Below are positions 36,567 through 62,618 of a stretch of 64,000 nucleotides of DNA, one piece after another. A program made the translations under genes and the position numbers. Numbering within the stretch: position 1 is the stretch's first letter; each line of letters begins with the position of its first letter. The stretch lies in NCBI GenBank assembly GCA_017499595.2, contig CM039005.1, positions 1,674,001 to 1,738,000 of the forward strand, given 5' to 3'. The notes under the pieces were generated by a model. The model had not been told where the DNA came from and did no database searches. It saw only the letters and a list, made by a program, of their open reading frames with translations. Source of the stretch: Psilocybe cubensis (Eukaryota).

Positions 36567-38649
36567 TCATTGAGCGTCCTGGATGATAGTGGCGGCCGCT
36601 TTTTCAGATATCATGTAGACTGCGGCAACGATGTAGAGACTAGGAATGTTTGGAAACACGCTGGCGTCCACAACTCGAAGGCCCGAGACACCTTTGACAC
36701 GGAATTTCGAGTCCAGCACAGAAGTTGTTATGTCGTCATCTGCGCCAATGGGAACTGAACAACTTGCGTGATGACCCCAGGCTTCGTCCCTAATCCATTG
36801 CTTCACGTCAGCTTCGCTTTGAATGGCTGGCCCGGGGATCTCTTCAGTGAAAAAACCGTCAAGTGGAAGTGCAGATTTGAACATCTTCCGAGCAAGCTGC
36901 ACGCCTTCGAACGACGCTTGCGCGTCAAGATCCCCGCCCACTGTATAACTCTTGAAGCTGATCTGAGGAGTATCCCTTGGGTCACTCGATCGAAGGGTGA
37001 CTGTGCCTGCGTTATTCCGACTATGAGCTTTGAGCACCAACCACGTCCAGTGCCGACTGTCGGCGTTTGTGCGATTTGAGTAGCCAGGGAAATAGCCATG
37101 GAAGTTCGCTGGTACACCTGCAATAATAATATCGGCCTCCGTCGGTGCAGAGACGCTTGTTTGCTGCACAATGCCTAACGCGTACCCATTGGATGCGTAT
37201 AGACCGTGGTCAAGCGAATTATCGCGCCATTGAATGAAGCAGGGATCATCCGTGGTGTTGAGGAATGTGCAGCCAGCTAGATCAACAAAGCCGCTGTCTG
37301 CTGAGCCAACAACGCCGACTTCGTATCTGTCCTGCATGTTGGTGCCGACCGCGGGCGAGTCGAGCACGACAGGAATATCAAACTGAGAGAGTTCATCAGC
37401 TGGACCGATACCAGAAAGCTTTAAGAGCTGTGGAGTGTTGAATGTTCCTCCCGACAAAATTACTTCGCGATTGGCGAAGAAAGTCCCGGAGCCAGTTGGA
37501 TTCGCCCCGTCAGAATTTGGATCGGCTCGGTATAGGTGGCTTCCCTGGAGATACTCCACACCTATTGCACGGGGAGTCCCAGAAGTGGAGTTGGTATCGA
37601 AGATAACCCGCGTCACAAGGGTATTGAGTTCAATGTCGAGTTTGAATTGTTTGCTGCCGTCCGCATTTACGGCATTAGCGGTGTCCAATATTAGTTTACG
37701 TTGGCTCGAACGCGTCTTGGGTCCGTTGGAAACAGAAATAGGAACCTGGTAAAGTCCTGTAGTTGTATCTCGTGTAGGTGAGTCGTTGTTGAGATCCGTA
37801 ATCAGGACTTGGGCTAAGCCGCTGAGTGTTGATAATAAACTGCCGAGTAGACCTTGACCCATCGCGGTGGCAGCGCCTTGCACAAGACTCAACACTTTCG
37901 TGTCCTTGAGAACAAGATTGAGGCTGGTGAGCGAGGTGTCAAGCCAACCAGCAAATCCATGGCCCGATGTTCCCGGCAAGACATATTGGTTGTTTTCTAA
38001 TTTCTCCCAGAATTGACGCATATTGGCAGCACTCCACGATGAGTCTCCAGTGATGGTCGCAATATTATTCCAGTCGCTTTCAGCAGGATATATCATCACC
38101 ATGGCATTGTGTTCCGCACACCCACCCAAGGTTCCTGTCCTGGGATAGTAAATCCCAAGAGGTTCGCTTCCAGCAGGAGGATTTGGGCCAACAAAGAAAC
38201 GACCATCGGGTTGCTTCCAGGTAAATTTTGAGTCGCGTTGGGCTGTTGCAGGGTCATCGTAGTGCGAGACAAAAAATTGCCAGTGAATTGGCGTATACTC
38301 GGAAGCCTGGGCGTTCAACGCAGGCACCCGAACAAAATCGTCGTCACCATTATCGTCTCCGGCATCAACCAACAGGACAGAAAAACCTGCTTGAGCTAGT
38401 CGAGCAGCCAGCGGACCCCCGCCAGGGCCAGACCCAACTATGATATAATCCCATGTATTGGTAGACGAATCATTAGCGGCACGGGGTTCTCGTTGGTTTA
38501 TTGAGGCTGCATTGACATACAGGAGGTGCCTTGGGATATATCAGACGTCTAATCTTCTTAAAACAGAGTAATTCAAGTACTCACCAACACAGAAAGTAGA
38601 TGAAGGATAAACAGGACAAGGAACCTTTGAAGCACCCCATTGCACGCAT
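36567..38649 (-). CDS. Secreted GMC oxidoreductase (CAZy AA3), one intron
   Basis: Rossmann motif WDYIIVGSGPGGGPLAARLA, YPRTGTLGGCAEHN, EVILSGGTFNTPQLLKLSGIGP, catalytic WGHHAS, GLRVVDASVFP; signal-like first exon. Confidence 0.95.
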
Positions 38650-40308: not shown

Positions 40309-43300
40309 CTAGACGCCGTCGTTATCTTGACCAGGATCACCGTTGGGGTTTTGGGATCCACTTCCACCTGGTTGATTGGGATTGCCCGGTTGGAACATTC
40401 TACTTTGACGATATCCGCCCCAGTTGAATGTCTGTCGTCCACAGTCATCGGGAGGATTTAAAACAAGCTGCCCACGAGTGGAGCCTGTATAGGTGTCGAG
40501 AGTCATGATTCCATTGTTGATCATGTAATTTCCGAAACGAGTCATAAGCGCTGCCCACTCATTCAAATGGTTGTCGTTGTCGTTGTCGTCTCCCGGGTAC
40601 CAGAAAAGATCGTTTTGATTACCACAGTTTAGAACTCGGGCGCGACGATTGCGATTGGGATCCTGATTGTCAACTCGCCCACGTCCGTTATTTCCCCGTC
40701 TAAATTGACCGTGGAAAGCGACGACGGCATGTATACCTGGTGCAGCGCCATGAGTAGCCGTTGCCTGTCTAATGTGATCGGTGTGGAAGTGGAAAACGAC
40801 ATAACGATCCGGATTAGTGTGTGCATCGGAAGGATTTTCGTCTTGGAAATTAGAGTTAATTCCTCCTGCCCCACTTCCAGAGGGTAGATTCCAGACGACT
40901 GATTGCGCCTCCGTTAATCAAACACATATACTATGAAGTCTGAGAAACATACCTTCAAGGATGGTTTCTTCAGATCCAGATCCTGTTGCAAGAATCATCT
41001 GCTCATATTCAATGGTCATTTGACCGTTCAGAATGGCCTCCACCATGAAACCTTATGCAATAATTTAGCTCGACAAAGAGTACAGAGTGGTAATTACTCA
41101 CCCCACGATGGTTCTCCGTCGGGCCCTGTGTTGGTTGTGTGTTCACTGTCACCCAGGTTCCTCGAAAGTAAGGAAGCCTTCTCCGATGCTGTCGAGCTGA
41201 CATTGTCAATGTTCTCAAAGCTGGTAAAGCCTCTATGCCAGAAGTCGGATGCACTCGTATCTCGTCTGCTGACCAGGTTACAGGAATTGGTGCAAACTTG
41301 GGTTCGGCTGCTATGATAGTCGGCTAAGAAGTTGATTGCATCATTCCCCATGCAAAGCAAGCTCTCCGATAGCGAAAGTTGATCCATATTTGGCCTTTAT
41401 AAATTCATGAGCATTAAGTCATTTCGTCAATAGTTGTTTATGTCAACGCACCAGTCGCCAAAGTATGAGGATATATTCGAAACAAACAGTCCATGACTCG
41501 CACCGTAGATTGTATCAAAGGCAGATTCCATTAGGTTCTGTTGATAGGTTTGACCATTTCCAGAAACGAGCTGCGTGAGCTGCTGGAGAGTTTGAGCCAT
41601 ATCAGCGTTGCTCAGTGTCGTCCGCTTGTCGAGGCGGGAGAGAATATCATCGATCTCTCTAGAGTATTGTATCTGTCCAACTTTGCAGGTTGCATCAGAT
41701 GAAAACGCCTGGATTCGCTTTGTGAAATCAGCGACTAAAGGATCATTCTAATAACCAACCATAAGCTCAAAAAACTTGTAGCAACAACGATTGGCTTACT
41801 GTAGTTGTAGGGTTGTCGCAACAGAACGCGCCATAACCTTTAGTTGATGCAACTTGTGAGAAATTTAAACGATATCGGTTCAAGGGATATACGAACCGCT
41901 CCAGCAGCCAGTAGGATCGGTTGCGATAACCGACTTTCCGGCTGGACATGTTCCAGTACAGACAAATGGAATCTGACCCAAGAATTTTCCACCATGGTAA
42001 TACCAGTCGCAATTCTCGTATGGAGGAGGTTGGTCGCAGCAGAATGACTGCGTTCGATGTTGTTGTCAGATGGGATACGGTAGCAGTTACTCTGCAACTC
42101 ACCTTGTCACCAATCGCACACGGTTGCTCACCTCCAGCGCCATAATTACTGTTCGTGAGGGCCTTTTGACCATCAGGGCATCCAGCCTGGCTGAATGGAG
42201 CAGAACAAATAGGCGCGCTTCCAGACCAATGGCACTCCGATACAGCCTGATCCGAAGCCGTCTTGAGGCAGCAGAGGACCTTATGTCCTGTCCAACATTC
42301 CGCGCCAGTTCCAGTGGTAGATGATGTAACTTCAACTTCGCCATCATGACATTTCCCGTTACAGAATGGCGCACCACCTCGCCATGTGCAAGTTGGCATG
42401 TCGTTGCTTGGGCAGCAATACAGTCGCATATCGTCGCCTGAACAGCCGGTGTTGGTCCCAGTGTTACCCCTATTCTTACCGTCGCTGCGCTGCGCAGGGC
42501 TTAACCCCGCAGGGCATGATTTACCACATTCGCCGAGCTGGCACGAGGTAATGGGGTCAGATTGTTTTGTTGCTAGAAGCGATAAAGCTTGTCGTCCAGT
42601 TGACTTGGACAAAGCACCGGCGGCATTGCCCTTCGCGTCATCCGTAGAAGAGGCCCAAACCATGGTCCCACCGAGACAGTGCGAGTTGGCGTAGTCAATC
42701 TTCATCTTGAAAGTGTCAGAATCGTCATATGATACCCATTGGTTGTTATTATATGTGACCATTTTGACGGCAGCTTTAGTATCGGTCGCGACATGGGCGC
42801 CTGCTGCGACAAGGCGTTGAATTTCGGCGAACGAGAGGGTTCCGACGGATTGGGTACATGTGCCAGCATCTCCCCCAGAAGTGAAGACACAACCAGGGGT
42901 ATTACAGCTAGGATCAGCGAGGGTAAACGAACGACCATAGAATCCAAGTCCCAGTACGACGTTGTCTGGGTTAATTTTGTTACGCCAGAGGAGAGACAAG
43001 GCTTCATCAATTTCCGTAAGATTGGTGTGGGCAGCAATGTACGGTCCCAAAAATTTGTTTGTCGAATCCCAAGTACCGTGAAGGTCATAAGACATGAGGT
43101 TGAACCAATCGATCGTCTTCTCAATGTTCACGATATCAAAGTGTTGGAGGTACCAAAACGACGATGGAATCTGAGAAAGCAGTTATTATCAGCATTGCAA
43201 CATGAGTGGAAAGGAAGTTAACGTACTGTGATCGTAAGTCCATAATTGTGCCCCGTCGAATGAAGGGCATTTCTAAGGTTCTGCAGGAAGGTGACATAGT

Positions 43301-44181
43301 TTTTGTAATCGTCGGGCTTTCCAGAGCGTTCTGGAGCTACGGGATACTCCCTACAATGATAATGAAGTTAGGAAGCAGCGGATCATACTTGAGAAAGAGA
43401 AACTAACCAATCAATGTCGACACCGTCGAAGCCGTATGTCTCCAAGAATGACAATACCGATGCAAAGAACTTGGACTGTGCATCACTCGACCCAGCAAGG
43501 TCAGAGAAAGTAGTAGCAGTAGGTTGGTCTGGATCATTCATGGACCACCCGCCAATCGAAATCCAGGTTTGAAGTCCCGGATTGGTATTTTTAAGTGCCG
43601 TAAAGCGCTTGTACAAAGCAGGGTCGGCGTCGCTCATCGGTGATAAAGCAAATGTGGTTGGGTTCTGCATTGGGAATTTTAACACAAGTTTTCATGATTA
43701 CAGAATGCAAGACACTTACGACGAAAGCAAAAGCAAAGTTCAGATGGGTGTACGAGCCAATTGGAATGCTTTCTGGATACATCTTGTCGCATGGACGAGT
43801 AACACTCCAAGCTTCATAATACCCAATGGTCCGTTTTGAAGAGCTAGATCCGCCAGAGCAAGAAGGGGCAGTTACCGTGGCATTTCCACAAAAGTCTGAT
43901 GTTGTCCCGCAGAATCCGAATTTTGAGCAGCAAACTTTTAGGGGACATTCCTCAGCGTTGGACCACTGCGCACCCCAACCGGGATCACAGTCAGACTTGC
44001 GATCGCAGTTGGATATGCAGTTCTCTGGTCCACAGGAGTCTGGGCCTAAGCCACAGGAGCCAAACTTTGTGCAACATCCAATTTCGCAAGGTTGGGTGGG
44101 ACTGCAAGTGAATTGTGCCGACGTGGCCACACTTAAAAGGAGTGCCGTCAGCCAGATTGGTGCACCGAGTGCGAGCTTCAT
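40309..44181 (-). CDS. Killer-toxin-like (subgroup C) GH18 chitinase: signal peptide, 2x CBM18/hevein, GH18, Cys-rich repeats, uncharacterised C-terminal domain
   Basis: CSPTQPCEIGCCTKFGSCG and CPLKVCCSKFGFCG (CBM18); YTHLNFAFA, ISIGGW, FDGVDIDW|EYP (intact DxDxE), NLMSYDLHG; spliced reading continues to the stop at 40309. Confidence 0.93.
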
Positions 44182-45073
44182 GGTCGACCGCTCTTTGCAA
44201 AATCTGAAGCCTTGGGATTTCGCCGATAGATGGGAGGGTTTGGTCGGCTTTCGATAAACTCATGGCCAGTGATATGTTGTAGTTTATAAGTTGCTATCAT
44301 TTCGGATTGAAAAGGTCGTAAGCTGGCTTTAGTTTGCATCTCGTCATCATGTAGACCGTCCTAAGATCTCGCACGCGACGTAATATGAAAATAACGGAGA
44401 GTACGTTGGATGAACATGTGAACGATATTTTGGGTGTTGTGTAGTATAGATCATGGTTGAGTTGACAGGAACAGGTAACGCTAATGTCACTAAACTGATC
44501 AAATTCGGCTTATAGCGGGCATATCCGTTGGCCGAACGGTTCTAAAATGACGCTCTACACGCGCTTATCATGATGTGCAACGCGAGACTCGTGGCAACTT
44601 CCAATCAACCACGACAACTATCATCTTGCAACTGCAAACTTGCGATGTATCGAGTAACTTCACGTCATGGTTGATGTGAAAATCTCTGGTCTGTGTCTAT
44701 TCTTCAGCGCTGAGCCGTTAAAACCCAAGATCCGATATCATATGTCCAAGTTTCAGACCTTCAGTAGACCGTTTTTGCCGACTGTATGACATGTTCTGGA
44801 TCTGGAATTAATCTGTAGGAGCTTTTATGTGTTCTAAAGTTACTAATCGTGCCTTCCATTGCTACTTGCAACATTACACTATGTCAATATGTTATCTCAG
44901 GATCCATTTTCTGATTCATTGACCGATTTCATCACGGATGCACAAGTGTATTTGCGACAACACTTACCCAATTTCTTTCTTACCACTTTGGGATCCCGAT
45001 AACCGTATGTATTGTGAACCTTTTTTTTTGCACACTCCATTCATCCCCCACTTTGCGTCGCGCCGGTAGTATC

Positions 45074-48115: not shown

Positions 48116-50238
48116 TCAGAGCTTTAAAATCTCGTCAGTATGCTAATAGAGTGCGTGTTAACTTCATAATTACGTATGTAGTAGATGAGAATCTTACCAA
48201 TGGCACAAGACTTGAGAGCTATAGATGTTGCAGTCAACGAAAGAATATACGGGTAGATCATCTTAACCGACCTTGGGGTCGGATATAACTTTACACATCT
48301 CCCGCTTTCTCTGATGAGGAGCTAAACACCGACTATGTCCCCTGAGGCTGCAACTAAGCTCGTGGCACTTGGTCTTATTAATGAAGTCGTCCATTTTCGC
48401 TTTTTGGGACTTTTGTGCCTCGTAGATTGCACTCCTTTGAAAATATTTCACATTGGTATCACACATTCTGCATGGTATTATTGAACGAACCTTGCAGCTT
48501 CCATTATTTGTGCATACGTGGGTGTCCTGTTCTCTTTCAGAAGCGCGACGATTGCCTAATGGTATGTCATGATTATTGAGCAATAGGGGACCCCTATCGT
48601 TGCTGCACGTACGGTTGTCATTGTACCTCCATCTGGTCCTTCTACGGATTGTTGAGAATCGTCGCAAGCAGAGATGGATATCTACCGCGCCAGTCATTGA
48701 GTCAGAACTTTGACGCGGAGGCCCCAAAGTAGTCATAGAGCGTACCACTTGACAACGTCTTCCACGGACTCGACGACAAAAGCCATTACATTTGGTCATT
48801 TTCGCTTCTTTAGGTTTCTTCGGCGACCTAGATGCAATATCCTTTGAACGGCTGTGATTTTTTTTGGCGGCAATCAATAGCAATCGGGAAGTTTTTACTC
48901 GCTGCTTGACTCTGTTCTTCTGCTGGGATAGAGGTTCGGTTATCACTGAGAGCAAAAAAGGTGCTAAGTATGAATTCTCTACGAGCCACGAGCTACGTGC
49001 ACATACCTTTTCGAAGTCCATTCTGAACTAGAGCAAGATAAATTGTACGTATAATTGACGATATTCATTATCAATTCTCACCAAAGCCCCTCCATCCACC
49101 AATGTGATTGCAACGTTGATGCTCAAGGTCTGTAGGATAACTTTGAGAAATGTTTCATAGATAAACTTGCCAAGGTGAGGCCTACTGAGTAGAGTCCCTG
49201 AGTGGCATGTATCGAAGAGGGCCTATAATCCAATGTTATTTTTGCAACAGACCACCAATTCAGATTAGTCCAGCTTACAGTGAGACGGGAGTGCTTGGGA
49301 AGGCAATTTACAAGATGCTCTCTCAAAGTCTATATACAATAATTATGAGCATGAGTTATGGCAGGAACAGTCCCACTGACCTTGTCGGTAATGATCCGTT
49401 CGTGATTAATGTCGGTAATGGTCCATCCATGATTCAGATACTGTACACGACATGCATCACTTGGAATAAGGACTGAAAGCGTTGATGAGTACATTTTTCC
49501 AACTACGTCGTTCTGTAGATAATGGGAAATCCGTACATTCTTCCTGGCCGTCTTCTTCTACTCCAGCAAAATCATCACGATGGAATGAATGACCTGAGTC
49601 TGTGTTCATTGTCAAAAGGATGTTTCGAACTAGATCAAAGGCAAGACATACACGCGAAGAAAAAATCGGCGTTCGAGTTGTCAGTCATACAGTTCTTTAA
49701 TTCCCTCATCTGCAAAATAGATATTACAAATGGATGTTGTGAACGGCATAAAAAGACATACGATGTTGTCGTGCGTGGGAAGCAGTTCTGTCGGTGTTCC
49801 TTGCCTATCACTTAGAATAATAAATTTCGTGTAATTAAAATCATCTGCAGTAGAGCATTAAGCCTGCTGCACTACAAAAGAATGAAAATATAACTTACTC
49901 CTCAATAAGTCCTCTAATAAGTGTATGTCTTTATGTGAACCTGTCAGCTCATATCTTCCGTCGCCACGCAAATAGCCAATGCCAATGAGAAAAGCGATTT
50001 TTTCCTTGTCGCGATGTCGGAACCTGGCCTAGATAGAACGTGTCAATATGTATAATTGTAAAGAAAACGAGAAAGAGTCGGTGCTTACTAGTGTGCGCAA
50101 ATACAAACGAAGTTTGCGAAACACTTTCGCGGTGCGTGCTGTCTGTGATACCAGCGGGACGGTGTCGGATGAGGGAGACAATGTTTGCTGCAAATCAGGA
50201 TCTTCGAGAGGCACATAATAACTGGGTGCTGTGGACAT
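48116..50238 (-). CDS. Metacaspase (peptidase C14) no. 1, multi-exon
   Basis: Spliced: KIAFLIGIGY...LTGSHKDI; PTHDNI|MREL...FFFAYSGHS; EEDGQEEFLIPSD; ALFDTCHSGTLL; ISISACDDSQQS; LSSLVPL. TATAAAA at ~50287-50293. Confidence 0.88.
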
Positions 50239-51349
50239 GTTCCCCACTGTTGTAGGGCGGGGAACCCCCAGTGCGTTTGACAGGCTTTTTATATTCTGCA
50301 CCAGTGAGGCTGTGATATTAGTATATATCCTTCATAATTAACAGCCCCCCTCCTCCCTGGGCCATGATGACCTTGGCGCATGTGTTTGGTGATTTTCTAC
50401 CTTTGGTCCGACATTTTTATGAGGGGAAGAATTTGGATGCGTGCCAATCGACGACTGCGAACAAGTTTCGAGTATCGCGATCGTATCAGTTGGAATCAGT
50501 ATTCTTCATTTTCGTCTGCGGCCCGGTGGCTGAAAATCAGTCGCCGGTTATGTGAGAAGGATCCCCCGAAGTAACGATTCACGACTTTATACAGCACTTA
50601 TGGCAGATCGAAATAAAAGATAGGCATACTCATCACCAAATGGTGTGATTTTGTAGTAGCAAAACAGACTGGAGCGACGGCTATTCAGTTGCGAAAACTA
50701 CATATAAGGATTGTACAATAACTATCTACGAATGTATATCAGATTAACAGTTATTACGCGAAAGTAAAGTAATAGGGATAGAGGTTGAACAAGACCATAA
50801 ACGTAAGGGCTACGTAGTTTATTTCTTGTCAATGAAATGTATGCACAGAGTACCACGGCAAAACAAAAAAAAAGCAGGGAAAATATCGGATTTTTCCAAC
50901 CGCACACAAAGAAATAGGATCAACCGAAATGACCGACCGGAATGAACAAGGAAAAGGCATATGGGTAACCTTCACCTCTGATATACAATTTCTCGGAGCC
51001 GCGCAGACTTGATGATTTTCGGTAATGGAAAGGACAATCAGGAAACTGCAAGGAGACTGCATATGAGGCGTAATTAAGCACTGCCGACCTGAAAACAAAA
51101 TGACCTTACCTCGCGCATGGGACTATTGTCCCATGTCCCACATCGGCAGTAGTGCATTCGTAGATGTGTTGCCGAGCTCATGAATGGGCTGGTCAATCAA
51201 GGTGGACCTACTCTGTTATGGACAGACAGTCGAATCATTTCGAGTCAGAAATGATCTGTGATGCAAATGCAGTGCAAACAAATTTGGGTATGCAGGGGGT
51301 CATATTAAGAAACCGGTCCATGTTTGCTTGAAACACCAAAAAACAGTGT

Positions 51350-53703
51350 TTATGGAGCAAAGAGTCGTGTCATGTCCTGAATTTTTGGCTAATCATCAGT
51401 ATACGGATACTTGGATAAAGTTCAGAAAAAAGCTTACAAGTGGAAGGTCACTGGAAAGCTAATTGAATGATGCCACCCAAAAGAACAAAAAGTTGTTTTA
51501 GCATCACGCTTCAAACATGAAGAAATGGCAAGACCACTTTTGTCAGAATGCTAACCTGAGGATTTTGAAAATTATTCATCTCCACCGGATCACCCTCCCT
51601 GGGCTTCTTCCCCTTTTTACGCATTTTTTCATTTGCTATCCTGACGGCTTTCTTATACTCTCGAGCTCGGTCATGCAAATCCACATAAAAAGCGTGGATG
51701 TCGTGACTGAGAATAAGAAACACGATAAATATGATATATTCTACATCGTTGAAAAAGTTGAAAGATGCACCTAACAAGCGTCATTAGGTCCGCTAACGTA
51801 GGATGGGGATCTTTCCCTAGACACAGCATCAGCCAAGGCCGCCTACAGAGCATACGAGGATTTGCTTACTCAATATGTTAACGAGAACTTGTGTCATCGA
51901 CGTGCCGTTCCTGTCTTCCCAAGACTTCTGGCCATCTTTCGCGGAAGAAATAGAGATCTGATGTCATTAAGAGGAGAAATTTTCACAAGTAAGCCAGCTG
52001 TTCTAGGTGGGAGAGCACGAGGACATACGACGTCCGCTTGCACAGCGCTTTCGTCATGAAGTGCATGCTGTCTACAGTAGCCAGTGCAGTACATTGCTAC
52101 CGGTGAAGAACATTCCTGCCGAACGGTGGGAGAGTCTATCCAGAATTTAGAGGCGGATGTCGACACCAGGTCCGTGGTGATGGACAACTTGGATTTGACG
52201 TGCCCAGCTGTACCCGGATTGGGTGTTCCTTCATGTATTGATATAGAGTCTGTAGGCGAAATAAGAACTTTATCGATGGACGAGTGCGCCCAAGCTTGCG
52301 CCTTTAGCCGCGTTATAGCATTTGGCATTGAAATCTCTAGAAAAAGGGACGCGAAAAACGCGAATTGTCTGTTAGAACAAGGATGGGCAATCAGTTGTCC
52401 TAAAAGCTCACTTGCTCGCTGACGTTCTTCAAAAAGATCAATGGGTAATGTGAGCTGATCATTCCTCTCCCTCAAGATGTAAAGGGTGAACTCACTATTA
52501 CTATTCAACAGGGTGGCCGTCTTTCGAGTTCCTTTGTTTATCCAGGGCACATAGACGCGATTACATCTGAAATGCTTCAGGTCTGCTCAAAGGTAATCAG
52601 TACCGTTGTCCGCGTTGGAAGTTGGACTTCAGTTTCTTCCGAAGTACAGACCCATACATACCAAGCAAAGAGCCTGAGTGACATGAGTCAAAGACAGCCT
52701 AGCGGCATAATTAAGAAGGATCCACATTTACAAAAGGCCGTGCTCACAATCAAAGATGTTTTTGGTGGTAGTGGGTCAACGAGTGTTTCTTTTAGTATCT
52801 GGAAATATCTCGACTGAGCAAGGGAATGGTAGTTGGACAACAGCACCCAATCTTACATCGTCCTTAATTCTCTTGCCGTCAGAGGTCTCGATGACTATGT
52901 AGTCAAGATTATATTTCTCCGCATGATATATGTGATAATCAATCCGACTTACATTCGTTCTTGCGATCTTCTTCGGAAATATCTTCTGTATCTTCCTGTA
53001 CCGAGTGACCAGAGACTAAGCACAGAAGATGTGTTAGACGTTGCAAAGAGGATTACGACATCTCGAAACACTAACAATGGAAGAAAAAGCGATCTCCCTC
53101 TTGAGCTCCCTCCACTAATTTTTTCATTTCATACATCTTATGTCCGGATTAGACAGGTTAAATACATCAAGGTTTGTTGAACCATCACATACAATGTTCT
53201 CTTGGGTAGGTTGTTTATGACCTGGTAAGTCATTATCTATGAGGATTACAATATCCTCGGGTTTATAATCATAAACCTCTGATACAAGCGAAGAGCGTTT
53301 GAGTACTAGGCTACCAAGAAAAGCAAAAGGTGCCCTGTTACGCACCTATCAAAAGCTTCCGAAGAGCTTCAACGTCTCTATGAGGCCCTTTCAGCAAACT
53401 CTGTTTCATGGACTTCTTCTCCTGCATCTTCGTCTTCATCCTCTTCAACCCCGTCACCGCAAAGTTGTCTGATCTATTGAACCTGGCCGACAACGGCGAC
53501 AAAGGCCCCGGAGACGCCGGGGATAATGGAGGCTGGTCTCGCACTTCCTGACACCCAATCAACAACGCCTTCTTCCGCGGTGTCTTCACAGCGGGAGCAG
53601 GATTAGCGACGGCCTGTTCTGCAACAGCTGTGGCTGCCAATACTGCCGCCTCAACTGCCTGTCTCCGTCCTTGAGGCCACAAACGACTTCTGATGATCTT
53701 CAT
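51350..53703 (-). CDS. Metacaspase (peptidase C14) no. 2, multi-exon
   Basis: RKKALLIG...LKGPHRDV; PTQENI; GAQEGDRFFFHFSGHS; AVFDSCHSGSLL|DLKHFRCNRVYVPW; FQNPQ|LSSDLPL|DM. Confidence 0.9.
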
Positions 53704-54356: not shown

Positions 54357-57226
54357 CTATTCTTCATCGCCGCTTCCTTCGTCTGAGCTTGCAACGTCCT
54401 GGTCCTGGTCCTGGTCCTCTTCCTCCGATTCATCCTCTTCGCTCGCTTTGGTGGCGGAGGCAGCAGTGAACCCAGACAACAGCGAAGACGAGCCACCACC
54501 CGCCGCATTTTTTGCTTGGGCTTGCTTCCACGCATGAGCCATCTGCATGAATTTGAATGACGTTGGATTCGACTCGCGTTCGTCGTCCGCAAACACCAAA
54601 TCCCAGTCTAAGCACATCATAAATAGCCAAGCATAAGCTTATCGCCATCAGCCAAGAAAAAAAATAAGCATAACTGACCTTCGACAGTCTGTCCTGTTTC
54701 TTGATCGACGTGACGTTTCTTGGTGACGATAGGCATCATGTCTTGCACCTTCTTGACATCCTCGGGGCCACCATGGTTCTGCTCAAACGTCTTCCATACC
54801 TCTAGAAGGGCCACACGCTACAATAGCTGCGTATCAGCGAAACAGAGGAAATTGTCACCAGAGACCACCAGAGATACCACATACCTCGCTCTTTAACTGC
54901 TTGCTCTTCAAGTCTTTATAGCCGCGTTCGAAGACTTGTCTAGCCAGATCAACGTCACCGGGAACCATCTTTCTCTCCTCTTCCTCCTCTTCCTCCTCCT
55001 CTTCTTCTCTCTCCGCCCTAGGAAGCGGTATGGGCTCAGCCTCAAAGAGCGCATATGAAATCCAGACTTTAACGTGTCCACTGAGAGAAATCAACCTCTC
55101 GTACAATGCCCTCGCCGTCTGTCTCTCGCCTTCCTCGACCTCGAAATCGATGTATGCCTTCCATAAAAGTTCGGGCATTGATAACGGTGATTGTGAGACG
55201 GCAAGCTCGAATATGGCACGAGTTCGAGCGAAATCCTGGAGTTGTGCTTCGAGTTCGGCGAATTTGATCCAAGCGCTCGAGTTCGAGGGATCCCACTTGT
55301 AAAGAGAGGTGTTCAGAAAAATGACCTAGTGTGACTAAAAAGCAGTGAAATTTACCTCTAGATATTTCTCATACAATGTCCGTGCACGATCGAATTCACG
55401 AAGCTAAGCAGAGGTTAGAATAGGTATATTATCACCATAAAGCACCATACCTCAACTTCCAAGTCAATATAGCCTTTAAAAAGCGCCTCTTTCGGGCACA
55501 TTCCGATGGCCGTACCTAGGATCTTGCGAGCCGCGGGAAGTTCCAATCGTCTAATTTCAAACTTGGCAAACATGAGCCACAGTTTGGCGAATGTGAACTG
55601 CTTATGGGGAACAAGCTGGATGGCTGTTTGGTATATTTGTCGCGTCCGTGGGTAATCCTGTGGTAAAGATGTGAAACCAATTATTTGTAAAATAGATAAT
55701 TAATACGAGCCTTCGTCTCAATCTCCTCAAACAAAGCATAGTCCAGCCAGAGAAATATATATCGCCTCCAATGTCTTTTCTCTCCTCCTGGTGGCACCTG
55801 GGCAACAGCCCTTTCGTAGACTTCCCGGACACGTCCGATGGCTGCATCCAGCTCTTCCTGAGTGCTGCCCTCGTCTTTGAGATCTCGATAGGCACCCTCT
55901 TCTAATCGGGCATAGTCAAACCAGACATCATAATTCTTTCCGTCATGCGAAATCTCCTCTTCGTATTGTATCCGTCTTTTTCCAAGAACAGTGTTTTCGA
56001 GAGTGTTCCGTGTTCCGTGCTGCTTTTCAAATTTGGTATAGGCAGCGTAGAGAGCAGCGGATTTAGATCTTGGGATCCTGGAAAGGGCGAACTAAGTCAA
56101 GGGACTCAAGTAAGTGGGAGTGACAAAAGAAAATAGAAATAAAACGGTTACCTTGTAGATGACCCTAGCACGTTCAAACTCTTTCAGCCGTGTCTCCATC
56201 TTTGCAAACGCGTTGAAGACCGCTTGAGCCTTCTCCACCTGTTCTTCGTCATCACCATAGAATTCCAGCGCAGTCTGAAAGACTTCCCTCGCTTTGTCGA
56301 AGCGATTCCTTTCTTCTTCGAACTTCCCCCACTTTACCCACACCCTGGGCTCTGGTCTCACAGCAACCCATCGCTCGTAAATCGAACTTGCCCTGTCAAG
56401 CTCCTGGTACCGTTCCTCCAACTTGATATATGCCTGCCACGCCTTGTCATCTGGTTCCCACTGCATCCACCTCTCGAACACCTGACGGGCCCCAGGGACA
56501 TTTTGCAGAAGTTCCTCCAGGTAGACATATTTGTACCAGAGTTGGTCGACGCGCGGAAGGAGGGTGACGGCACGGTCGAAGAGATTGCGGGCATGTTGGA
56601 CATTGCGAGATTTCAGCTCCATTTCGGTGTAGGATAGCCAGAGTTGGACGCTGCGTGGGTCGACATCAAGAGCACGCTCGAAAATAGACCGCGAACGCGC
56701 AAATTCATTTTGAGAAGCCTAGGATTGCAGAGATTAGAAAAGTTTTAAGGATAGCCATATCAGACAGAAACATACCTCCCAGTTCGCGTACTGTAACCAT
56801 TCTTTGCTGAGCACCAGACATGTCAATATGCATGGTCATCTATATGTCGTTGCCACTCACATGCTCCCTCGTGTTCTTCGAATCCTCTCCTCAAATTCCT
56901 TTCTTTTCCGGCCGCGGTATTCATGGAGCTCTTCGAAATCTTCGACTCGTTGTTTAGGTGCGCGGAACGCGGTTTCTTGCCGCTCTTGAGCCTGTCAGAG
57001 AGATTAATCATCGAAATCGGGGCCAGATATTATGATGAATACCTCTCTGAGGAGCTGCTCAGCTGTGATCTGAAATAGCAAGATTGCATGAGCACGGTGT
57101 CATAAAGTTCATAAAGAGAACATTGACCTGGATCGCAGCTGGCGCCCGATTTTTGATTCTGCAAAAATTAGAAATGTTACTCGGAGATAAGAAAGGCCCT
57201 TACCTTGGTGCACGACCGTCCTGCAT
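54357..57226 (-). CDS. CLF1: Pre-mRNA splicing factor CLF1 / crooked neck (HAT repeats), multi-exon
   Basis: [73 protein letters not shown]. Confidence 0.97.
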
Positions 57227-57659
57227 GGCTGCAATGCAGATTATGGGATATGCAAGGGTTTCGACAGCCCAAGCTGTTGTAATTGGTGAACCAGTGCCAG
57301 GTTTCCTTGATTGTAGCGCGTCGGCTATTGCCGAACAATTGCTTAGTCATTTTGCTTTTGGACTTGGTTAGGTCCGCCATCCTTCGACAGACGCCAATGA
57401 CATGCACAGCTGCCTTGCCCACTCCATGGAGAGATGAGGCGATTCATATCACACAGCCTTGATATGCTTGAAGGTAAATGGATAAAAACATACTCGTCTT
57501 GCCCTCTGGCCCTCTATCTTGCCCCGCTCCCAACATACTAGTAAGGGCCCCAGTTCACAAACTTTTGAAAAAGAAATGCCAAACCAAGCCTTTTCGTTGG
57601 AGAGATGGAGCCTAAACTGGGTATGTCTGTGCTTCTCTGGGCACAATTCTGAAGTCTAA

Positions 57660-60600
57660 ATGTCTAAAATGAAGAATCCCTTACGGAGATTACGTCGACG
57701 CAAAGTAGCGCTTCTCATCGAGTCGAATCCTTCTGGTTTATCAGGCAGGACTTATCATTCATACACTGAGCGCCTAATTGCGCTACTTGAACGTAATGAG
57801 CTTTTATCTACTCACCCTTCCTTTTTCTGTGGGATTCTGATGGCAGAATTCAGGCGAATATGGCTACAAGGAGATTATTCTACTTTCTGATTCGGACGGA
57901 ACGCACCATGATCGCACTCCGACTTATGCAAACATAGTAAGCAAACTTTTATTTTGAAGTGTTGGTAGGGGCTTATTATTTGTGACCGTAGATGAGGGAG
58001 TTAACTAAGTTCGTAACGCCTAGTCGGCCCTCGGATTACTTTTTTGCATGTGAGCATTTTCTCCAGGACGACAAACTCGTACTGATGGTAGCACACTTTG
58101 TTAGATCTTGGTCATTCTTCAGAGACTTGTTTAGACTCGGTGCAGGACGGGCATGATGAATGTAATAATTGTCATGCATAAATGCCACAGGTAGTTTGAC
58201 CTTTGTGTATACCTCTCAGATATCATTCCTTGCGATGCCGTTGACAATACGACCAGCGTTGTGGACGAAACAAAGATTATCACCGACGATGTTCGTGTCA
58301 GGCCCACCTTTAAAATGAAGCAAACTGATTATATGATTTTTCTGGCAGACTCTGCGACAACTTCTAACCGAGGCCCTTCCCCGGGGATCCAATCTCGTGG
58401 TAAGATACCAGAAATCTTTTTCAAACTTATTATAAACCTTTTGATATCAGGCTCTATTTGATACATGCCATTCAGGAACTTTGCTGGGTTAGTTAATGGC
58501 TCCAAAAGGTGAATAAAACTGACCATTATACCATAGACCTCAAACATCAACCTTGTAATCCCCAGAAACACAAGCTTGCTTTCGGTAAGTTGTGCGAAAG
58601 ACCGGTTCGAATAAATGCCAAGGATTTCTTTCCTATCCACCTTAATGAACTAAAGATCTAATACTTTTCTATCTCAATAATAGGTGAACCGTTCTTCCGT
58701 CGCATTACCGATAGTATTACACCCAAATGGCGAGCTACAATTAAAAGATCGAGTCAGGGGGCTATCGGGTTTGGTCGAGATATTACATCACTCCGCAGTG
58801 TAGCTATCTTCCACGGTTTTGGTTACGTTCGTTCTGCATTTTGACACGAATATAGGACTATAAACCTCATCCAATAGAGCGTACACAACGCAGCCCGCAC
58901 TTATGCGCAGGTCACTCTACAAAGTTTGTCTTTTAAGTATATTTAACCTCTGTCTAGTTGATGATGGTCTTTGCAGGGTTTCCCATTTCTCCCATGCTCG
59001 TGATTTTACAGTGTCCGGCGGGCAATTTTACTCCGCTAACACTATAACTGTCAATCAGACTCCTCAGAAAGGCAAGTCATTGCATCTGAGGAGAATATAT
59101 TCATACATAATAACAAAGGTTTAGAAAAGTCAGAATCTGTGATAGAGAAGAGTTTGATACCGGAAATACCCACAGTAAGCAAGCACCTAAAAGACTGGTA
59201 CCGCACCATAATCTGATTACCTCTCTAGATATCTCCTCGGGATGTTGAATTACACAAAGAAATATACAAAGGACATGACTATCGCATACATTCCGCCCAG
59301 TTATCTGGCAGAGCAATTATCGTTAAAATTTATGAAGGAGAACACGCTACAGAGGTACGCACATCCACCTATGACCATTGAACCTTTCTGTATATATCTA
59401 GTGTCACTTTTTATCAACTAGCTTTCGACCCAAACATGCAAATTTAGTATGAATATAATGTGAGAACAGAGACACCTCTGAGTTGAAAAAATCGGTACGA
59501 ATAATTACCTTCTGGATCCAGGCACCCCGCGTTTCCTCAAATATTTGGTGCGACATCCGGAAGTATGAGTCCCGCTTTTATTGCATTTTGTGGAGGTCAG
59601 TCCATGTTGGTTAAACTTGGAAATATTCAACCGATTCTTATATTTCGATACAGAATATCAAGGCACTGTTGAATCGATTGCTTTTCGATTGTTGTCCAGT
59701 AGTCTTGAGCAATCGTTGGTGCTAGGTCTGCAGTCGGTAAGATCATGTTACCACCTATCATAATTGTAACTGTATTCATTTCGAAGTCCAGGTTGTCTCA
59801 CTCGCTGTATGTTCTGCATGCTCTACATCTCCTTTGACAACCCTGATGCGTAGTGGAACTACAGTCAGGCCTAGATTATTTGTGTAATCTGGACTATCCT
59901 CTTCAAGATACCGATGTAAGTCTATAATGATTGCTGTAGATGGCCTGGTAATACTACTTACCGAATCCCGATGCCCAGAGCTTTATCCTACTCCTTGATA
60001 CTCAAGGCACTGCCAAAATCTGGTTTGATCCAAGCGTTCCCCATAAGTTTGAACAATGCACGGCTTCGGACAGCAAAAGTCGAAAAGATTCTTTGTCATT
60101 AGTTTTTGATCGTCTTCTTCAGAAGGTAGACCAATTATCACAGTGGTGGTCAGCATTCTCACTTCTGACGTTGTTTAGACTTTATACGGACCTTGCAAGT
60201 TTTACCGCCAAAGCAGTAGGTAACCTTCTCCATTGTTTAGAATACAAAATAAAGCTGGACACCTAGATCCCTGCCAAAAGTTTTCATGTGGCTCTACTTG
60301 GGCAGAAATTTCATATAAAAAGAACCCGCCTTTAGACGTAGTAACCCGCTACTCTCAGGCATTTTTAATCGACTTTTTGTTTGATTCCTCGCTCGATCGA
60401 TCGTGCATCGGACACGGTACTCATGGATTAATCTACAATGCTACTGCTACCCATCCAAAGCAGACATTGATGGACGCCTCTGCAGTCCTGAATTCAGGTG
60501 GGCAAGATCAAATTCCTCATAGTTTTCTTCCTGAGATAACATACGCCAGTGAATAACAAACCCAAGGATAATATAGTACCCAACAGTATTTCAAGCATGC

Positions 60601-61011
60601 CTCGAGCCGGCCCTATCAGATCTCCTAGCGGTAAGCCCCTGTACTTTCCCAGTGCCTCGTGCAATTACAATCATGCTACACAACGGATCCAGGTACTGAG
60701 GTTTTTTTATTGAGTACATGTATACAAGGCCACACAATGCTTCAAGTGAGTCTCGTTACAGAGCTCCCAATCTGTCTATACACTTGGTTTATTACTGATC
60801 TTCTTTGTTTATGAAGGTTATTGCGATGCTTCTCACCGCCGACAACACGCCGACGTACAGAGAGCTGCTAATGAGTGCCATGTGAGTGGTTAGTGTCTGG
60901 ATACTAATATGGTGATTGACACTCTCATGTCATGATTACAGCGACGCAATATGCACAGCGGGTTTTACTTCCACTCATCGTCTCACTTCATCGGACAACC
61001 CAAAAGGGTAA
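57660..61011 (+). CDS. Metacaspase no. 3 with inserted amyloid-signalling-like motif and pseudokinase domain (~20 small exons)
   Basis: KVALLIE; PTYANI|MREL...YFFAYLGHS (His at 58113); DEYIIPCD; ALFDTCHSGTLL (Cys at 58466); VSHFSHARDFTVSGGQF; IIVKIYEG...HPAFPQIFG...GLDYL; p10-like VIAMLLTADNTPTYRELL and LTSSDNP near 60818-61011. Splicing at 60550-60750 is unresolved. Confidence 0.7.
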
Positions 61012-61349
61012 TAATTACTATATTTAGATACTTTTAAACGCCCAATCAATTCTGTTGGTCTTATCTGGACGGAATGCTAACTTGAGATAACTGCTACCTT
61101 GCTCTTTATAACAGTAATCATGCTCTTTATTGCATACCCGACCAATGCAAGTTGTCCAAGATTGAATGCCCTGTGAATTGCCGATCAGCAACCCTACCAA
61201 TTTCCACATGACATCACTGTTGAACGTGACCTTACCCATTGAGACATTGATATAAGGCAACCGTGACGGCGAAGGAATAAATCACGTCTGGGTTGACGGT
61301 GACCACAATACACACTTGAAAACCTCATCTCTTCTTAACCTTTTCGCCG

Positions 61350-62158
61350 ATGCCTCAAGTCTCGTTAACAGAGCCGGCTCGTGCTCTCAAACAGTGCCAG
61401 AATTGTCTTAGACCAGAAACGGAGGTAAAACTTTGGGTTTGCAAACGGAGCCAACGGGCCCATTATTGTGTAAGCAATGTTGTGGTTGTGTGGTTGGTGC
61501 TGAAATTGATCGTAATGAAAGTCAGTTGAATGTCAACGAGTACACTGGCCAACTCACAAAGTTATATGCCGGCACAATGCAGAGACCCGCGAGAGAATGA
61601 GAGAAGGACCTATCATCAAGGAACTGGGTATTTCACCAAATACCATGAACCGTGTCTTGACCAAGTGGATTCAGGTAGGTTATGGAGGCCTATATCTTTC
61701 TGTGATAACCCACAACAATCATTATCTAGATTTTTCGTCCATTGCTTAGTCTTGCCGTATATCATGCATTGAGGCTGGGACAAAAGCCTGACAATTGCTT
61801 TGCTCAAACCTTACAACTGGTCATTTCTCCGACATTCACTTCGAGCAATGTGCCTCGCAGTACTAGAGATATTGAACACGCATTCAGGTTGGATCAAGCC
61901 TTGGTTATCGATGTTGAAACCATCAAGTCCTCATTCGCCCCTGCTCAACAAGCATTCGATAAAGCTTACGAACAAACTCACGAGGAACGCGCGAGAAATC
62001 CAAACGCCATTGGTTTTCCTGTTATCACGATTCTAGTGCCTACGGAGTCCACGATGAGGCAAGTCCCGGTAGGCCTGGAAAAATTGGAGATACCTTGGGA
62101 TGCCTTATGGGAAGAGAGCCTCAGACGGCACATTAACTCTGGGAATCCTAGATTATGA
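61350..62158 (+). CDS. zf-MYND domain protein (3 exons)
   Basis: MPQVSLTEPARALKQCQNC...LWVCKRSQRAHYC|SVECQRVHWPTHKVIC, followed by a helical region and ORF 61742-62158. Confidence 0.85.
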
Positions 62159-62618
62159 AAGATTGATAGGTAATTTCAAAGTAAAGCCCAACAACGCGAT
62201 TTCCTGTATATGTACTTGATCAAACTTGAACTTGTATTTCCGATCCGCCATGTAATGAGTAGAAGAGGAGTTTGTTGATATTATCAAGTTATGTTTATCC
62301 AACTGCACCGTGTTGCGGACGGCTTTGTGCCAAAGCATCCAGTTACAAAATAACTTCAGGTTGTTAACTCTCTATCGCTATGTTAAGTTTGAGTTCGGGA
62401 AGGGAAAGGAGAACCTGCCAATCCCGTATCTTTCAATCCGTGCGGTATCTACACCCAAAGGGATATGTTCGTGCAACCAAAATCAGCTGCCATAAAATAA
62501 CTTGATCCTCAGGCCACAAACCCACATTCCGGAGTTTAGGACAAGTTCCCCTTTACATTTCTTTGGCATGATGGTATTATCTGAGCACAGTTTTATCAAT
62601 ACACTAGTTTACAAATCT

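What the first reader, a model, noticed from the sequence alone, without database searches (positions are those of the whole stretch)
57660..61011. Metacaspase split by an amyloid-signalling-like motif and a pseudokinase (p20 - ASM - pseudokinase - p10)
Seen: manual splicing gives a p20 region with an intact dyad (YLGH, DTCHSG). It continues through phase-consistent short introns (e.g. 58911-58957 and GC-AG 59072-59118) into VSHFSHARDFTVSGGQFYSANTITVNQ, then a kinase-like fold. At ~60730-61011 sequence matching the p10 of the neighbouring metacaspases reappears (GHTMLQ|VIAMLLTADNTPTYRELL vs GGTMTT|AIVALLKENRTPTYAQIM; LTSSDNP vs LSSDLPL). Known: fungal NLRs activate cell-death effectors through amyloid motifs, and animal RHIM-kinase amyloids are coupled to caspase-8. 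Inference: this may be an amyloid-activated caspase-like protease, with polymerisation via the motif driving clustering and activation. I know of no description of this architecture, and the ORF track misses it.
Basis: partly seen in the sequence, partly recalled or inferred. Interest (0 to 1): 0.92.

Follow-up and report, generated by a model that had tools for sequence, protein, structure and literature searches.

The report
Metacaspase with an embedded pseudokinase-like insert
A Psilocybe mushroom gene, confirmed by a spliced RNA contig, encodes a caspase-like protease whose two halves are separated by about 420 residues holding a degenerate kinase-like domain and a short glycine-turn motif, an unusual layout whose proposed amyloid signalling role remains untested.

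Summary
A 1775-nt spliced contig from run X1 joins exons from 57907 to about 60963, and a second contig covers the 5' end. Together they give one 26-exon gene, CDS 57576-61011 (+), coding for 655 aa with no stop.

- **p20:** matches solved metacaspases (E 5e-15) with the His/Cys dyad intact.
- **C-terminus:** homologous to the p10-position region of the neighbouring paralogue (0 of 2000 shuffles) and shares its two intron positions.
- **Kinase-like part:** supported by one source only. The ESM Atlas model of the public protein gives TM 0.73-0.78 to kinases in 10 of 10 rows. Pfam, PDB phmmer and my kinase profiles found nothing.

UniRef already holds a mis-spliced 426-aa version of this gene from Psilocybe cubensis, joining p20, kinase-like part and p10.

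The amyloid reading is untested: no Pfam amyloid-motif hit and no partner motif in the window. The protease also looks divergent: the S1 Ser is Leu and a p10 loop is 12 residues shorter. In the one RNA contig, intron 24 is retained with a mutated donor.

Verdict: a real, unusual variant of a known kind. The mechanism is inferred.

The parts
57386..57575 (+). 5' UTR covered by RNA contig (at least from 57386)
   Evidence: X1 record 2 covers 57386-57619. An in-frame stop at 57483-57485 precedes ATG 57576 (ORF list).
57576..61011 (+). CDS of one 26-exon gene, 655 aa plus TAA. Exons: 57576-57620, 57675-57792, 57854-57936, 57992-58049, 58105-58161, 58220-58290, 58349-58399, 58451-58487, 58537-58584, 58684-58799, 58856-58923, 58977-59071, 59125-59174, 59229-59354, 59422-59459, 59522-59595, 59654-59736, 59792-59806, 59865-59915, 59979-60125, 60179-60215, 60267-60497, 60550-60630, 60693-60745, 60817-60881, 60942-61011
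   Evidence: Joints and record coordinates. Reconstruction and open frame.
57702..58487 (+). Metacaspase p20 core (about residues 25-175), with His105 at 58113-58115 and Cys167 at 58466-58468
   Evidence: P0003 36-167 against 7qp0 (E 5.1e-15), 4f6o (1.3e-14), TbMCA2 (1.4e-9), AtMC4 (3.9e-9), AtMC9 (1.1e-6). My bacterial C14 profile scores 18.2 bits over residues 71-173.
58537..58976 (+). Start of the inter-subunit segment (residues 176-251). Its first exon matches the neighbour's in size (48 nt) and opens with D-L-x-H-Q-x-C-N
58978..59058 (+). 27-residue Gly-Gly motif (residues 252-278) inside exon 12.
   Evidence: The exon is flanked by RNA joints 58923>58977 and 59069>59123. Position. No Pfam hit. 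Only one copy in the window.
59072..59124 (+). GC-AG intron
   Evidence: joint 59069>59123 with 2 ambiguous letters. One search shows GCAAGT..TTTAG.
59125..60420 (+). Degenerate protein-kinase-like region (about residues 283-540). The N half to the DFG-like site (283-451) has fold support. The C half (452-540) is read by eye only
   Evidence: P0003 202-370 (= focal 283-451) gives TM 0.73-0.78 to kinase models, 10 of 10 rows. Feature hits go to Basidiomycota 'protein kinase domain-containing' clusters at 0.93. Sequence tests were negative.
59792..59806 (+). 15-nt micro-exon
   Evidence: table 5c: 13 letters lie between 59738 and 59865. Also used by the public model.
60421..60697 (+). Spacer between the kinase-like region and the p10-like tail (residues 541-595), partly inferred
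   Evidence: The frame downstream is fixed by the 83 nt of contig between 60494 and 60692.
60698..61008 (+). Shortened p10-like tail (residues 596-655): one strand and two helices
   Evidence: 0 of 2000 shuffles against neighbour N49. The two intron positions are shared with N49. It is 12 residues shorter than both paralogues in the loop after the strand (sequences).
60746..60816 (+). Intron 24, retained in the X1 RNA contig together with T>C at 60747 and G>A at 60750 (donor positions +2 and +5). Retention gives a 633-aa product that ends before the p10 helices
   Evidence: tables 3 and 8 (piece 60692-60881 is contiguous)..
48263..50028 (-). Neighbouring metacaspase paralogue N49 (13 exons from exon 2, 363 aa, compact p20-linker-p10)
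   Evidence: all 12 introns are GT-AG. My C14 profile scores 39.1 bits.
51560..53600 (-). Second neighbouring metacaspase paralogue N52. Boundaries are approximate and only partly modelled

Best explanation
Shown: window 57576-61011 (+) is a single 26-exon gene of Psilocybe cubensis or a very close relative. It is one of three clustered metacaspase paralogues. Its 655-aa product runs as follows:
- A metacaspase p20 core with the His105/Cys167 dyad and all four Ca-site aspartates.
- About 420 residues in the place of the p20-p10 inter-subunit loop. This segment carries a 27-residue Gly-Gly motif (252-278).
- The same segment carries a protein-kinase-like domain (about 283-540) that has lost the Gly-rich loop, the catalytic-loop Asn and the DFG. 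That makes it a pseudokinase.
- A shortened p10-like tail (596-655).

Inferred mechanism: the insert plays the part that the long linker plays in plant type II metacaspases. It would be a regulatory, probably autoinhibitory, protein-binding module between the two protease halves. The pseudokinase would act as scaffold or sensor and the motif as a possible oligomerisation element. Pairing of p20 with p10, and so activity, would depend on what the insert binds or on its cleavage.

The protease itself has probably changed or weakened its substrate binding. The S1 Ser is Leu, no Asp is found at the alpha1 position kept by both paralogues, and the loop after the first p10 strand is 12 residues shorter.
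For: One spliced RNA contig spans p20 to p10, and a DNA contig of another study (X3) covers 56800-61561 with 5 differences. The frame is open through 26 exons, with P about 2e-10 for the insert alone. Codon usage fits the frame in 5 of 5 segments.

The p20 matches solved metacaspases at E 5e-15 to 1e-6. In the alignment to 4afr I fixed the numbering offset at +20 from the C213A position. With that offset, D211, D173, D189, D190 and D220 are kept and S156 is Leu. The residue roles come from passages of PMC4357240.

The tail is homologous to the paralogue's tail. By my reading, seven p20/linker intron positions and two p10 intron positions are shared with N49.

The kinase-like fold rests. A forced alignment puts IIVK on the beta3 VAVK and LQD on HRD. 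The public model P0003 independently uses the same splice junctions from 59125 to about 60100. No repeats or transposon-like ends flank the insert.
Against: The kinase-like fold rests on one source, a predicted model in the ESM Atlas with mean pLDDT 0.62 and pTM 0.43. Everything else was negative:
- Pfam gave 0 families for P0003, with a positive control working.
- PDB phmmer gave no kinase at E<=10.
- My bacterial kinase HMM scored -1.3 bits, reached by 33 of 1000 shuffles.
- hhalign gave probability 0.4%.
- The BLAST diagonal test was reached by 38 of 500 shuffles, and the forced-alignment score by 36 of 150.

My AlphaFold2 run on P0003 without an alignment was unusable (pLDDT 36.4).

The 76-aa C-lobe exon has no relative among 1.84 billion representatives; the 2 hits are repeat proteins. 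The tail gave no aligned stretch to solved metacaspases and -0.3 bits on my C14 profile.

The only RNA contig retains intron 24, which truncates the product. Both coding differences to strain X3 change the protein: Tyr506Cys and Thr618Ser. The regulatory role itself is untested.
Confidence: 0.55

Rival explanations
1. The Gly-Gly motif is an amyloid signalling motif. An NLR with a matching N-terminal motif templates it, the proteins stack, and proximity activates the caspase-like protease, with the pseudokinase as scaffold.
For: The motif is a short strand-turn-strand stretch rich in G, N, Q, S and T. It is included in the mRNA and sits in an otherwise family-less linker.

Passages of PMC9815663 say that Agaricomycete NLRs carry dozens of N-terminal amyloid-like motifs per strain. 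They add that effector-side copies are rare and virtually never encoded nearby, so a missing neighbour is expected. Passages of bioRxiv 10.1101/2020.01.06.895854 report bacterial amyloid motifs attached to caspase-like CHAT effectors.
Against: There was no hit to any Pfam family, including the amyloid-motif families, at E<=10. There is no second copy in the window. The word search with the motif found no candidate.

The motif is internal, whereas the papers' passages describe effector-side motifs as C-terminal. The motif logos are in figures and supplements that I could not see, so likeness to the basidiomycete NLR05/22 group is only recalled. The protease's substrate pocket looks altered.
Confidence: 0.15
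2. A decaying or neutral chimeric paralogue. A kinase-like gene piece landed in the loop-coding part of a duplicated metacaspase. The gene is still transcribed and spliced, but its product has no selected function.
For: - The S1 Ser is replaced, and the beta1-alpha1 region aligns neither to solved metacaspases nor to my C14 profile, while neighbour N49's does.
- A p10 loop is shortened.
- The kinase motifs are degenerate.
- The 76-aa exon has no relatives.
- 2 of 2 coding differences between strains change the protein.
- One strain or allele has a damaged splice donor with intron retention.
Against: 655 codons stay open across 26 exons, and all 25 introns have GT or GC..AG ends. The dyad and the four Ca-site Asp are intact. 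Codon usage fits throughout. Two variants are far too few to show relaxed selection.
Confidence: 0.25
3. Two or three separate genes (a p20 gene, a kinase-like gene and a p10 remnant) are joined only by an assembly or read-through artefact.
For: The tool warns that a contig across two genes does not show a single transcript. Only one RNA data set holds the stretch.
Against: The contig splices out the only in-frame stop after p20 (58799>58856). It holds no intergenic stretch, and one frame stays open throughout. The public gene model also joins the parts. DNA contigs of another study are collinear.
Confidence: 0.03

Closest known systems
Fungal and protist type I metacaspases (Yca1, Candida MCA1, TbMCA2)
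   Same: The p20 sequence matches at E 5e-15 to 1e-9. The His/Cys dyad, D211 and the four Ca-site Asp are kept.
   Different: There is no N-terminal prodomain; only about 24 residues precede beta1. About 420 residues with a folded domain sit where Yca1 has a 59-residue disordered loop and TbMCA2 an 8-residue one (PMC4357240 passages). S156 is Leu. The p10 loop is shortened.
Plant and green-algal type II metacaspases (AtMC4, AtMC9)
   Same: The topology is the same: no prodomain and a long segment between p20 and p10. The p20 is similar at E 3.9e-9 and 1.1e-6.
   Different: A 2026 review places type II in plants and green algae only and type I in fungi (PMC13304501 passages). Here the segment holds a kinase-like domain, and the gene's nearest kin are its compact fungal neighbours, so this is convergence rather than membership. 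The role of the type II linker in autoinhibition is recalled, not read here.
NLR-linked amyloid signalling (HET-S/NWD2-type motifs; basidiomycete NLR05/08/22/29/44 motifs; bacterial BASS motifs with CHAT effectors)
   Same: A short motif lies next to a cell-death-type effector domain. Caspase-like CHAT effectors carry such motifs in bacteria.
   Different: The motif is internal. It has no Pfam match and no partner is seen. Amyloid formation is untested.
Animal RHIM kinases with caspase-8, and the MLKL pseudokinase
   Same: The idea is the same: a kinase or pseudokinase module, an amyloid-type motif and a caspase-fold protease acting in one death pathway. This comparison is recalled knowledge.
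   Different: In animals these are separate proteins. No RHIM-type core was seen by eye, and no homology is shown.
Short kinase-like proteins of Basidiomycota (ESM Atlas clusters named 'Protein kinase domain-containing protein', 212-217 aa, no common Pfam family)
   Same: They are the nearest by language-model features: score 0.93 with 188 of 256 features shared, and 26 of 30 hits fall in this set. They may be the source family of the insert.
   Different: They stand alone rather than inside a protease.

Membership tests
Peptidase C14 metacaspase | Significant sequence similarity of the p20 to solved metacaspases | tested here: met
   10 metacaspase sequences at E 5.1e-15 to 7.5e-6; 18.2 bits on a profile of 14 bacterial C14 domains.
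Peptidase C14 metacaspase | Catalytic His and Cys in place | tested here: met
   alignments: the His of Y-L-G-H and the Cys of D-T-C-H-S-G align with the catalytic pair. The mutants 4f6p and 4afr carry Ala at that Cys.
Peptidase C14 metacaspase | Match to the Pfam model PF00656 | tested here: not met
   0 families for P0003 at E<=10 and E<=1, while a GMC oxidoreductase control scored. This is unexplained given.
Peptidase C14 metacaspase | S1 pocket residues (TbMCA2 C92, D95, S156, D211) and Ca site (D173, D189, D190, D220) | tested here: inconclusive
   In one search (4afr, offset +20), D211 and 4 of 4 Ca-site Asp are kept and S156 is Leu. C92 and D95 lie outside the aligned part. Both paralogues have Asp there and the focal protein does not. 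Residue roles come from PMC4357240 passages.
Peptidase C14 metacaspase | p10 small-subunit region after the p20 | tested here: inconclusive
   The tail is homologous to the tail of paralogue N49 and shares its introns. There is no direct match to solved metacaspases. N49's tail aligns collinearly but weakly (2.7 bits) to the end of my C14 profile, and the focal tail scores -0.3 bits.
Protein kinase-like fold (pseudokinase) | Kinase fold | tested here: inconclusive
   in the Atlas model of P0003, residues 202-370 align to kinase models at TM 0.73-0.78 over 154-165 residues in 10 of 10 rows. This is one source and a predicted model. My own AlphaFold2 model was unusable.
Protein kinase-like fold (pseudokinase) | Match to the Pkinase or PK_Tyr_Ser-Thr profiles, or to solved kinases, by sequence | tested here: not met
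   Searches are all at chance level.
Protein kinase-like fold (pseudokinase) | Catalytic motifs (Gly-rich loop, VAIK Lys, HRD, catalytic-loop Asn, DFG) | tested here: not met
   Forced alignment: the Lys is kept (IIVK), there is no Gly-rich loop, HRD reads LQD, the Asn is lost, and DFG reads WFD. If it is a kinase fold, it is an inactive one.
Fungal amyloid signalling motifs (HRAM, sigma, PP, basidiomycete NLR05/22 group) | Match to a described motif family | tested here: not met
   the motif exon gave 0 Pfam families at E<=10. The basidiomycete logos are in figures and supplements that I could not read.
Fungal amyloid signalling motifs (HRAM, sigma, PP, basidiomycete NLR05/22 group) | A matching motif on an NLR in the same genome | not testable with these tools
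   No whole genome is held. There is none in the 64-kb window, but the paper says basidiomycete pairs are not co-located.
Fungal amyloid signalling motifs (HRAM, sigma, PP, basidiomycete NLR05/22 group) | Forms and propagates amyloid | not testable with these tools
   This needs fibril and prion-reporter assays.
Type II metacaspase | Long p20-p10 linker and no prodomain | tested here: met
   Cys167 to the p10 strand at 596, with about 24 residues before beta1.
Type II metacaspase | Descent from the plant and algal type II clade | not tested
   No tree was built. The shared intron positions with the compact neighbours argue for a local origin.

The most novel reading that the evidence does not exclude
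The gene is an effector of a basidiomycete NLR network. One polypeptide holds an amyloid-type recruitment motif, a pseudokinase scaffold and a caspase-fold protease. That would make it a one-protein fungal counterpart of the animal RHIM-kinase/caspase-8 platform, and one of the missing effector-side partners of the many orphan NLR motifs of Agaricomycetes.
Probability: 0.12. Interest if true: 0.9.

Novelty: new variant of a known kind. Interest (0 to 1): 0.55.

Why it matters
Fungal metacaspases are described as type I only (review passages). A folded kinase-like domain inside the p20-p10 loop is not in the papers that my searches listed.

If the insert regulates the protease, it gives a tractable case of how a caspase-fold enzyme can be put under the control of a pseudokinase. 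If the motif is an amyloid signal, it would link NLR signalling to a protease effector in mushrooms. Effector-side motifs are reported to be scarce there (PMC9815663 passages).

It also shows that the public gene model of this locus is wrong in four places.

Tried and rejected
- **Whole genome:** not held.
- **RNA holders:** no RNA holder is listed on record. X1 is labelled RNA by guess, and I call it cDNA because of its spliced joints.
- **Whole spliced protein:** it could not be handed to Pfam, PDB, AlphaFold or the big protein searches, which take only contiguous window translations or database proteins. Single exons and P0003 stood in for it.
- **Exon-level Pfam:** 0 of 10 exons hit.
- **Exon-level PDB:** no kinase and no metacaspase.
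- **Word-index searches:** the 76-aa exon gave none. The motif in a 41-aa stretch gave no candidate. The 49-aa exon found P0003.
- **HMMER over 1.84 billion representatives with the 76-aa exon:** 2 hits, both repeat proteins matched in 4-5 weak stretches, rejected as spurious.
- **Metagenome scans with two exons:** none.
- **ESM Atlas on the 76-aa exon:** nothing above 0.80.
- **Bacterial kinase profile, hhalign, BLAST-band and forced-alignment tests:** at chance. One bacterial locus (L137) was dropped for a wrong frame, leaving 29 of 30. One search timed out. hmmalign would not align the region.
- **AlphaFold2 of P0003 alone:** pLDDT 36.4, not searched further.
- **Complex prediction, four copies of the motif exon:** no answer.
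- **A 13-mer shared with 40640:** low-complexity chance match, not a fourth gene.
- **Transposon-like repeats around the insert:** none.
Full report
**What is there.** The window is fungal: GC 0.448 and introns of 49-99 nt. No whole genome is held.

Laying public contigs on 56800-62300 gave the decisive result. Run X1 is labelled RNA only by guess, but its contigs skip GT..AG introns, so they come from cDNA. It holds a 1775-nt contig that joins exons from 57907 to 60881 plus 22 more letters. A 370-nt contig covers 57386-57619, 57674-57793 and the first 16 letters of exon 3.

Fifteen joints were listed and nine were not. I rebuilt the unlisted ones from the contig's own coordinates plus GT/GC..AG sites, and my count of rebuilt joints is nine. 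A DNA contig of another study (X3) covers 56800-61561 with five differences, so the locus is not a misassembly.

**Gene model.** The gene has 26 exons, CDS 57576-61011, and codes for 655 aa. All 25 introns end GT or GC..AG.

The first in-frame ATG after a stop is 57576.
- The 406 codons between p20 and p10 hold no stop (P about 2e-10). The other two frames hold 20 and 27.
- Codon usage trained on eight other ORFs of the window favours the reading frame in all five segments.
- Exon 23 (60550-60630) and the last joint are inferred. However, the 83 nt of contig between 60494 and 60692 fix the downstream frame whatever the exact exon.

**Public record.** The 49-aa exon found UniRef A0A8H7XWN5_PSICU, an uncharacterized 426-aa protein of Psilocybe cubensis (P0003). 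Three blocks are identical letter for letter to my model:

| P0003 | Focal protein |
|---|---|
| 6-179 | 16-189 |
| 202-370 | 283-451 |
| 383-426 | 612-655 |

So the public model already joins p20, the kinase-like N half and the p10 helices. It also confirms my junctions from 59125 to about 60100, including a 15-nt micro-exon. It starts at 57660, skips residues 190-282 (the motif among them), and skips 452-611. The RNA contig contradicts all of these choices.

**The protease halves.** P0003 36-167 matches solved metacaspases: 7qp0 at E 5.1e-15, Yca1 (4f6o) at 1.3e-14, TbMCA2 at 1.4e-9, AtMC4 at 3.9e-9 and AtMC9 at 1.1e-6. His105 and Cys167 align with the catalytic pair.

Passages of PMC4357240 give the TbMCA2 S1 residues (C92, D95, S156, D211) and the Ca site (D173, D189, D190, D220). 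I fixed the chain offset at +20 from the C213A position in 4afr. With that offset, D211 and all four Ca-site Asp are kept and S156 is Leu.

The beta1-alpha1 region aligns neither to solved metacaspases nor to my profile of 14 bacterial C14 domains. Neighbour N49 does align there and has the Asp (focal 18.2 bits over 71-173; N49 39.1 bits over 4-221). Oddly, Pfam gave no family for P0003 although a control scored.

The tail (596-655) scores 60 against N49's tail, versus shuffles at 21.6 +/- 4.1 (0 of 2000). Against N52 it scores 42 (1 of 2000). Its two introns sit at the same places as in N49. By my reading, seven p20/linker intron positions are shared too. The tail lacks 12 residues that both paralogues have after the first strand.

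Direct likeness of any of these tails to solved p10 regions was not shown. N49's tail aligns collinearly but weakly to the end of my C14 profile.

**The insert.** By sequence, nothing calls it a kinase:
- Pfam on exons and on P0003.
- PDB phmmer.
- A profile of 29 bacterial kinase domains: -1.3 bits, reached by 33 of 1000 shuffles.
- hhalign.
- A BLAST diagonal test, reached by 38 of 500 shuffles.
- A forced-alignment score, reached by 36 of 150 shuffles.

The ESM Atlas holds a model of P0003 (pTM 0.43, pLDDT 0.62). Its residues 202-370 align to kinase models at TM 0.73-0.78 over 154-165 residues in 10 of 10 rows. By features, the nearest clusters are short Basidiomycota proteins named as kinase-domain proteins, at 0.93.

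The forced alignment puts IIVK on the beta3 Lys, LQD on HRD and WFD on DFG, with no Gly-rich loop. I therefore accept a kinase-like fold at about 0.8, and an inactive one. The C half (452-540) is kinase-like only by eye. Its 76-aa exon has no relative in 1.84 billion representatives, in the word index, in metagenomes or in the Atlas. My AlphaFold2 run without an alignment failed (pLDDT 36.4).

**The motif.** It is in the mRNA (58978-59058). It has no Pfam match, no second copy in the window and no word-sharing protein.

Passages of PMC9815663 report hundreds of N-terminal amyloid-like motifs on Agaricomycete NLRs, few effector-side copies, and no co-location. The logos are in figures and supplements that I could not see. 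Bacterial amyloid motifs do occur on caspase-like CHAT effectors.

**Signs of divergence or decay.** In X1, intron 24 (60746-60816) is retained together with T>C at +2 and G>A at +5 of its donor. This gives a 633-aa product without the p10 helices. Contigs cannot show whether the spliced form also exists. The two coding differences to X3 both change the protein. No repeats flank the insert.

**Reading.** The gene is a real single gene with an unusual layout. Most likely the insert acts as a regulatory module between the protease halves, as the linker does in type II metacaspases. The amyloid-activation idea stays open at low odds. A drifting chimeric paralogue is the main rival.

No paper on such a layout turned up. 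The species plus metacaspase gave 0 papers. The other four searches listed papers of which, by title and abstract start, none describes it.

Noticed in passing
window 48263-53600 (-) and 57576-61011 (+): Three metacaspase paralogues lie within 13 kb. At DNA level only the active-site exon is still alike (49188-49233 against 58440-58485, 76%), so the copies are old.
   Followed up: partly
window about 53340-53590 (-): Paralogue N52 seems to carry its own insertion of roughly 45 residues between beta1 and alpha1 of the p20. Loop expansion may therefore be a habit of this cluster. N52 also lacks the intron that N49 and the focal gene have inside the p10 region.
   Followed up: no
window 60746-60816: The RNA contig of run X1 retains this intron and differs from the window at exactly two letters, both in the splice donor (+2 and +5). 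The rest of the 1775-nt contig shows no difference. DNA run X3 has the window's letters there. It may be an allele of a dikaryon.
   Followed up: partly
window 59792-59806 and 59072-59124: A 15-nt micro-exon and a GC-AG intron, both supported by the RNA contig. The micro-exon is also used by the public model.
   Followed up: yes
window 57660-61011 against P0003: The public UniRef model of this gene is mis-spliced. It starts inside an intron, reads through the GC-AG intron in another frame, drops three exons with the motif, and drops residues 452-611.
   Followed up: yes
window 56861-57386: Contigs of X1 and X6 for the upstream gene on the minus strand (HAT-repeat splicing factor of the Syf1/crooked-neck kind, Pfam) are spliced at 57000>57124 and 57158>57204 and reach 57273. 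The focal 5' UTR is covered from 57386, so the two genes diverge from a gap of about 110 bases.
   Followed up: no
P0003 (against 59): Pfam gives no family at all for a protein whose p20 matches solved metacaspases at E 5e-15. This is unexplained.
   Followed up: partly
window 36570-38540 (-), 41770-44259 (-), 13199-14005 (-): Ordinary neighbours: a GMC oxidoreductase, a GH18 chitinase with a chitin-binding module, and a HECT_2 protein. No NLR-type P-loop turned up anywhere in six frames.
   Followed up: partly
window 61350-61600 (+): The gene downstream starts with a Cys-rich stretch that looks by eye like a MYND-type zinc finger. It was not tested.
   Followed up: no
window 58828-59056: Run X2 (another organism label, probably DNA) holds a 229-nt unspliced contig identical to the window across the motif exon. 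Its meaning is unknown.
   Followed up: no
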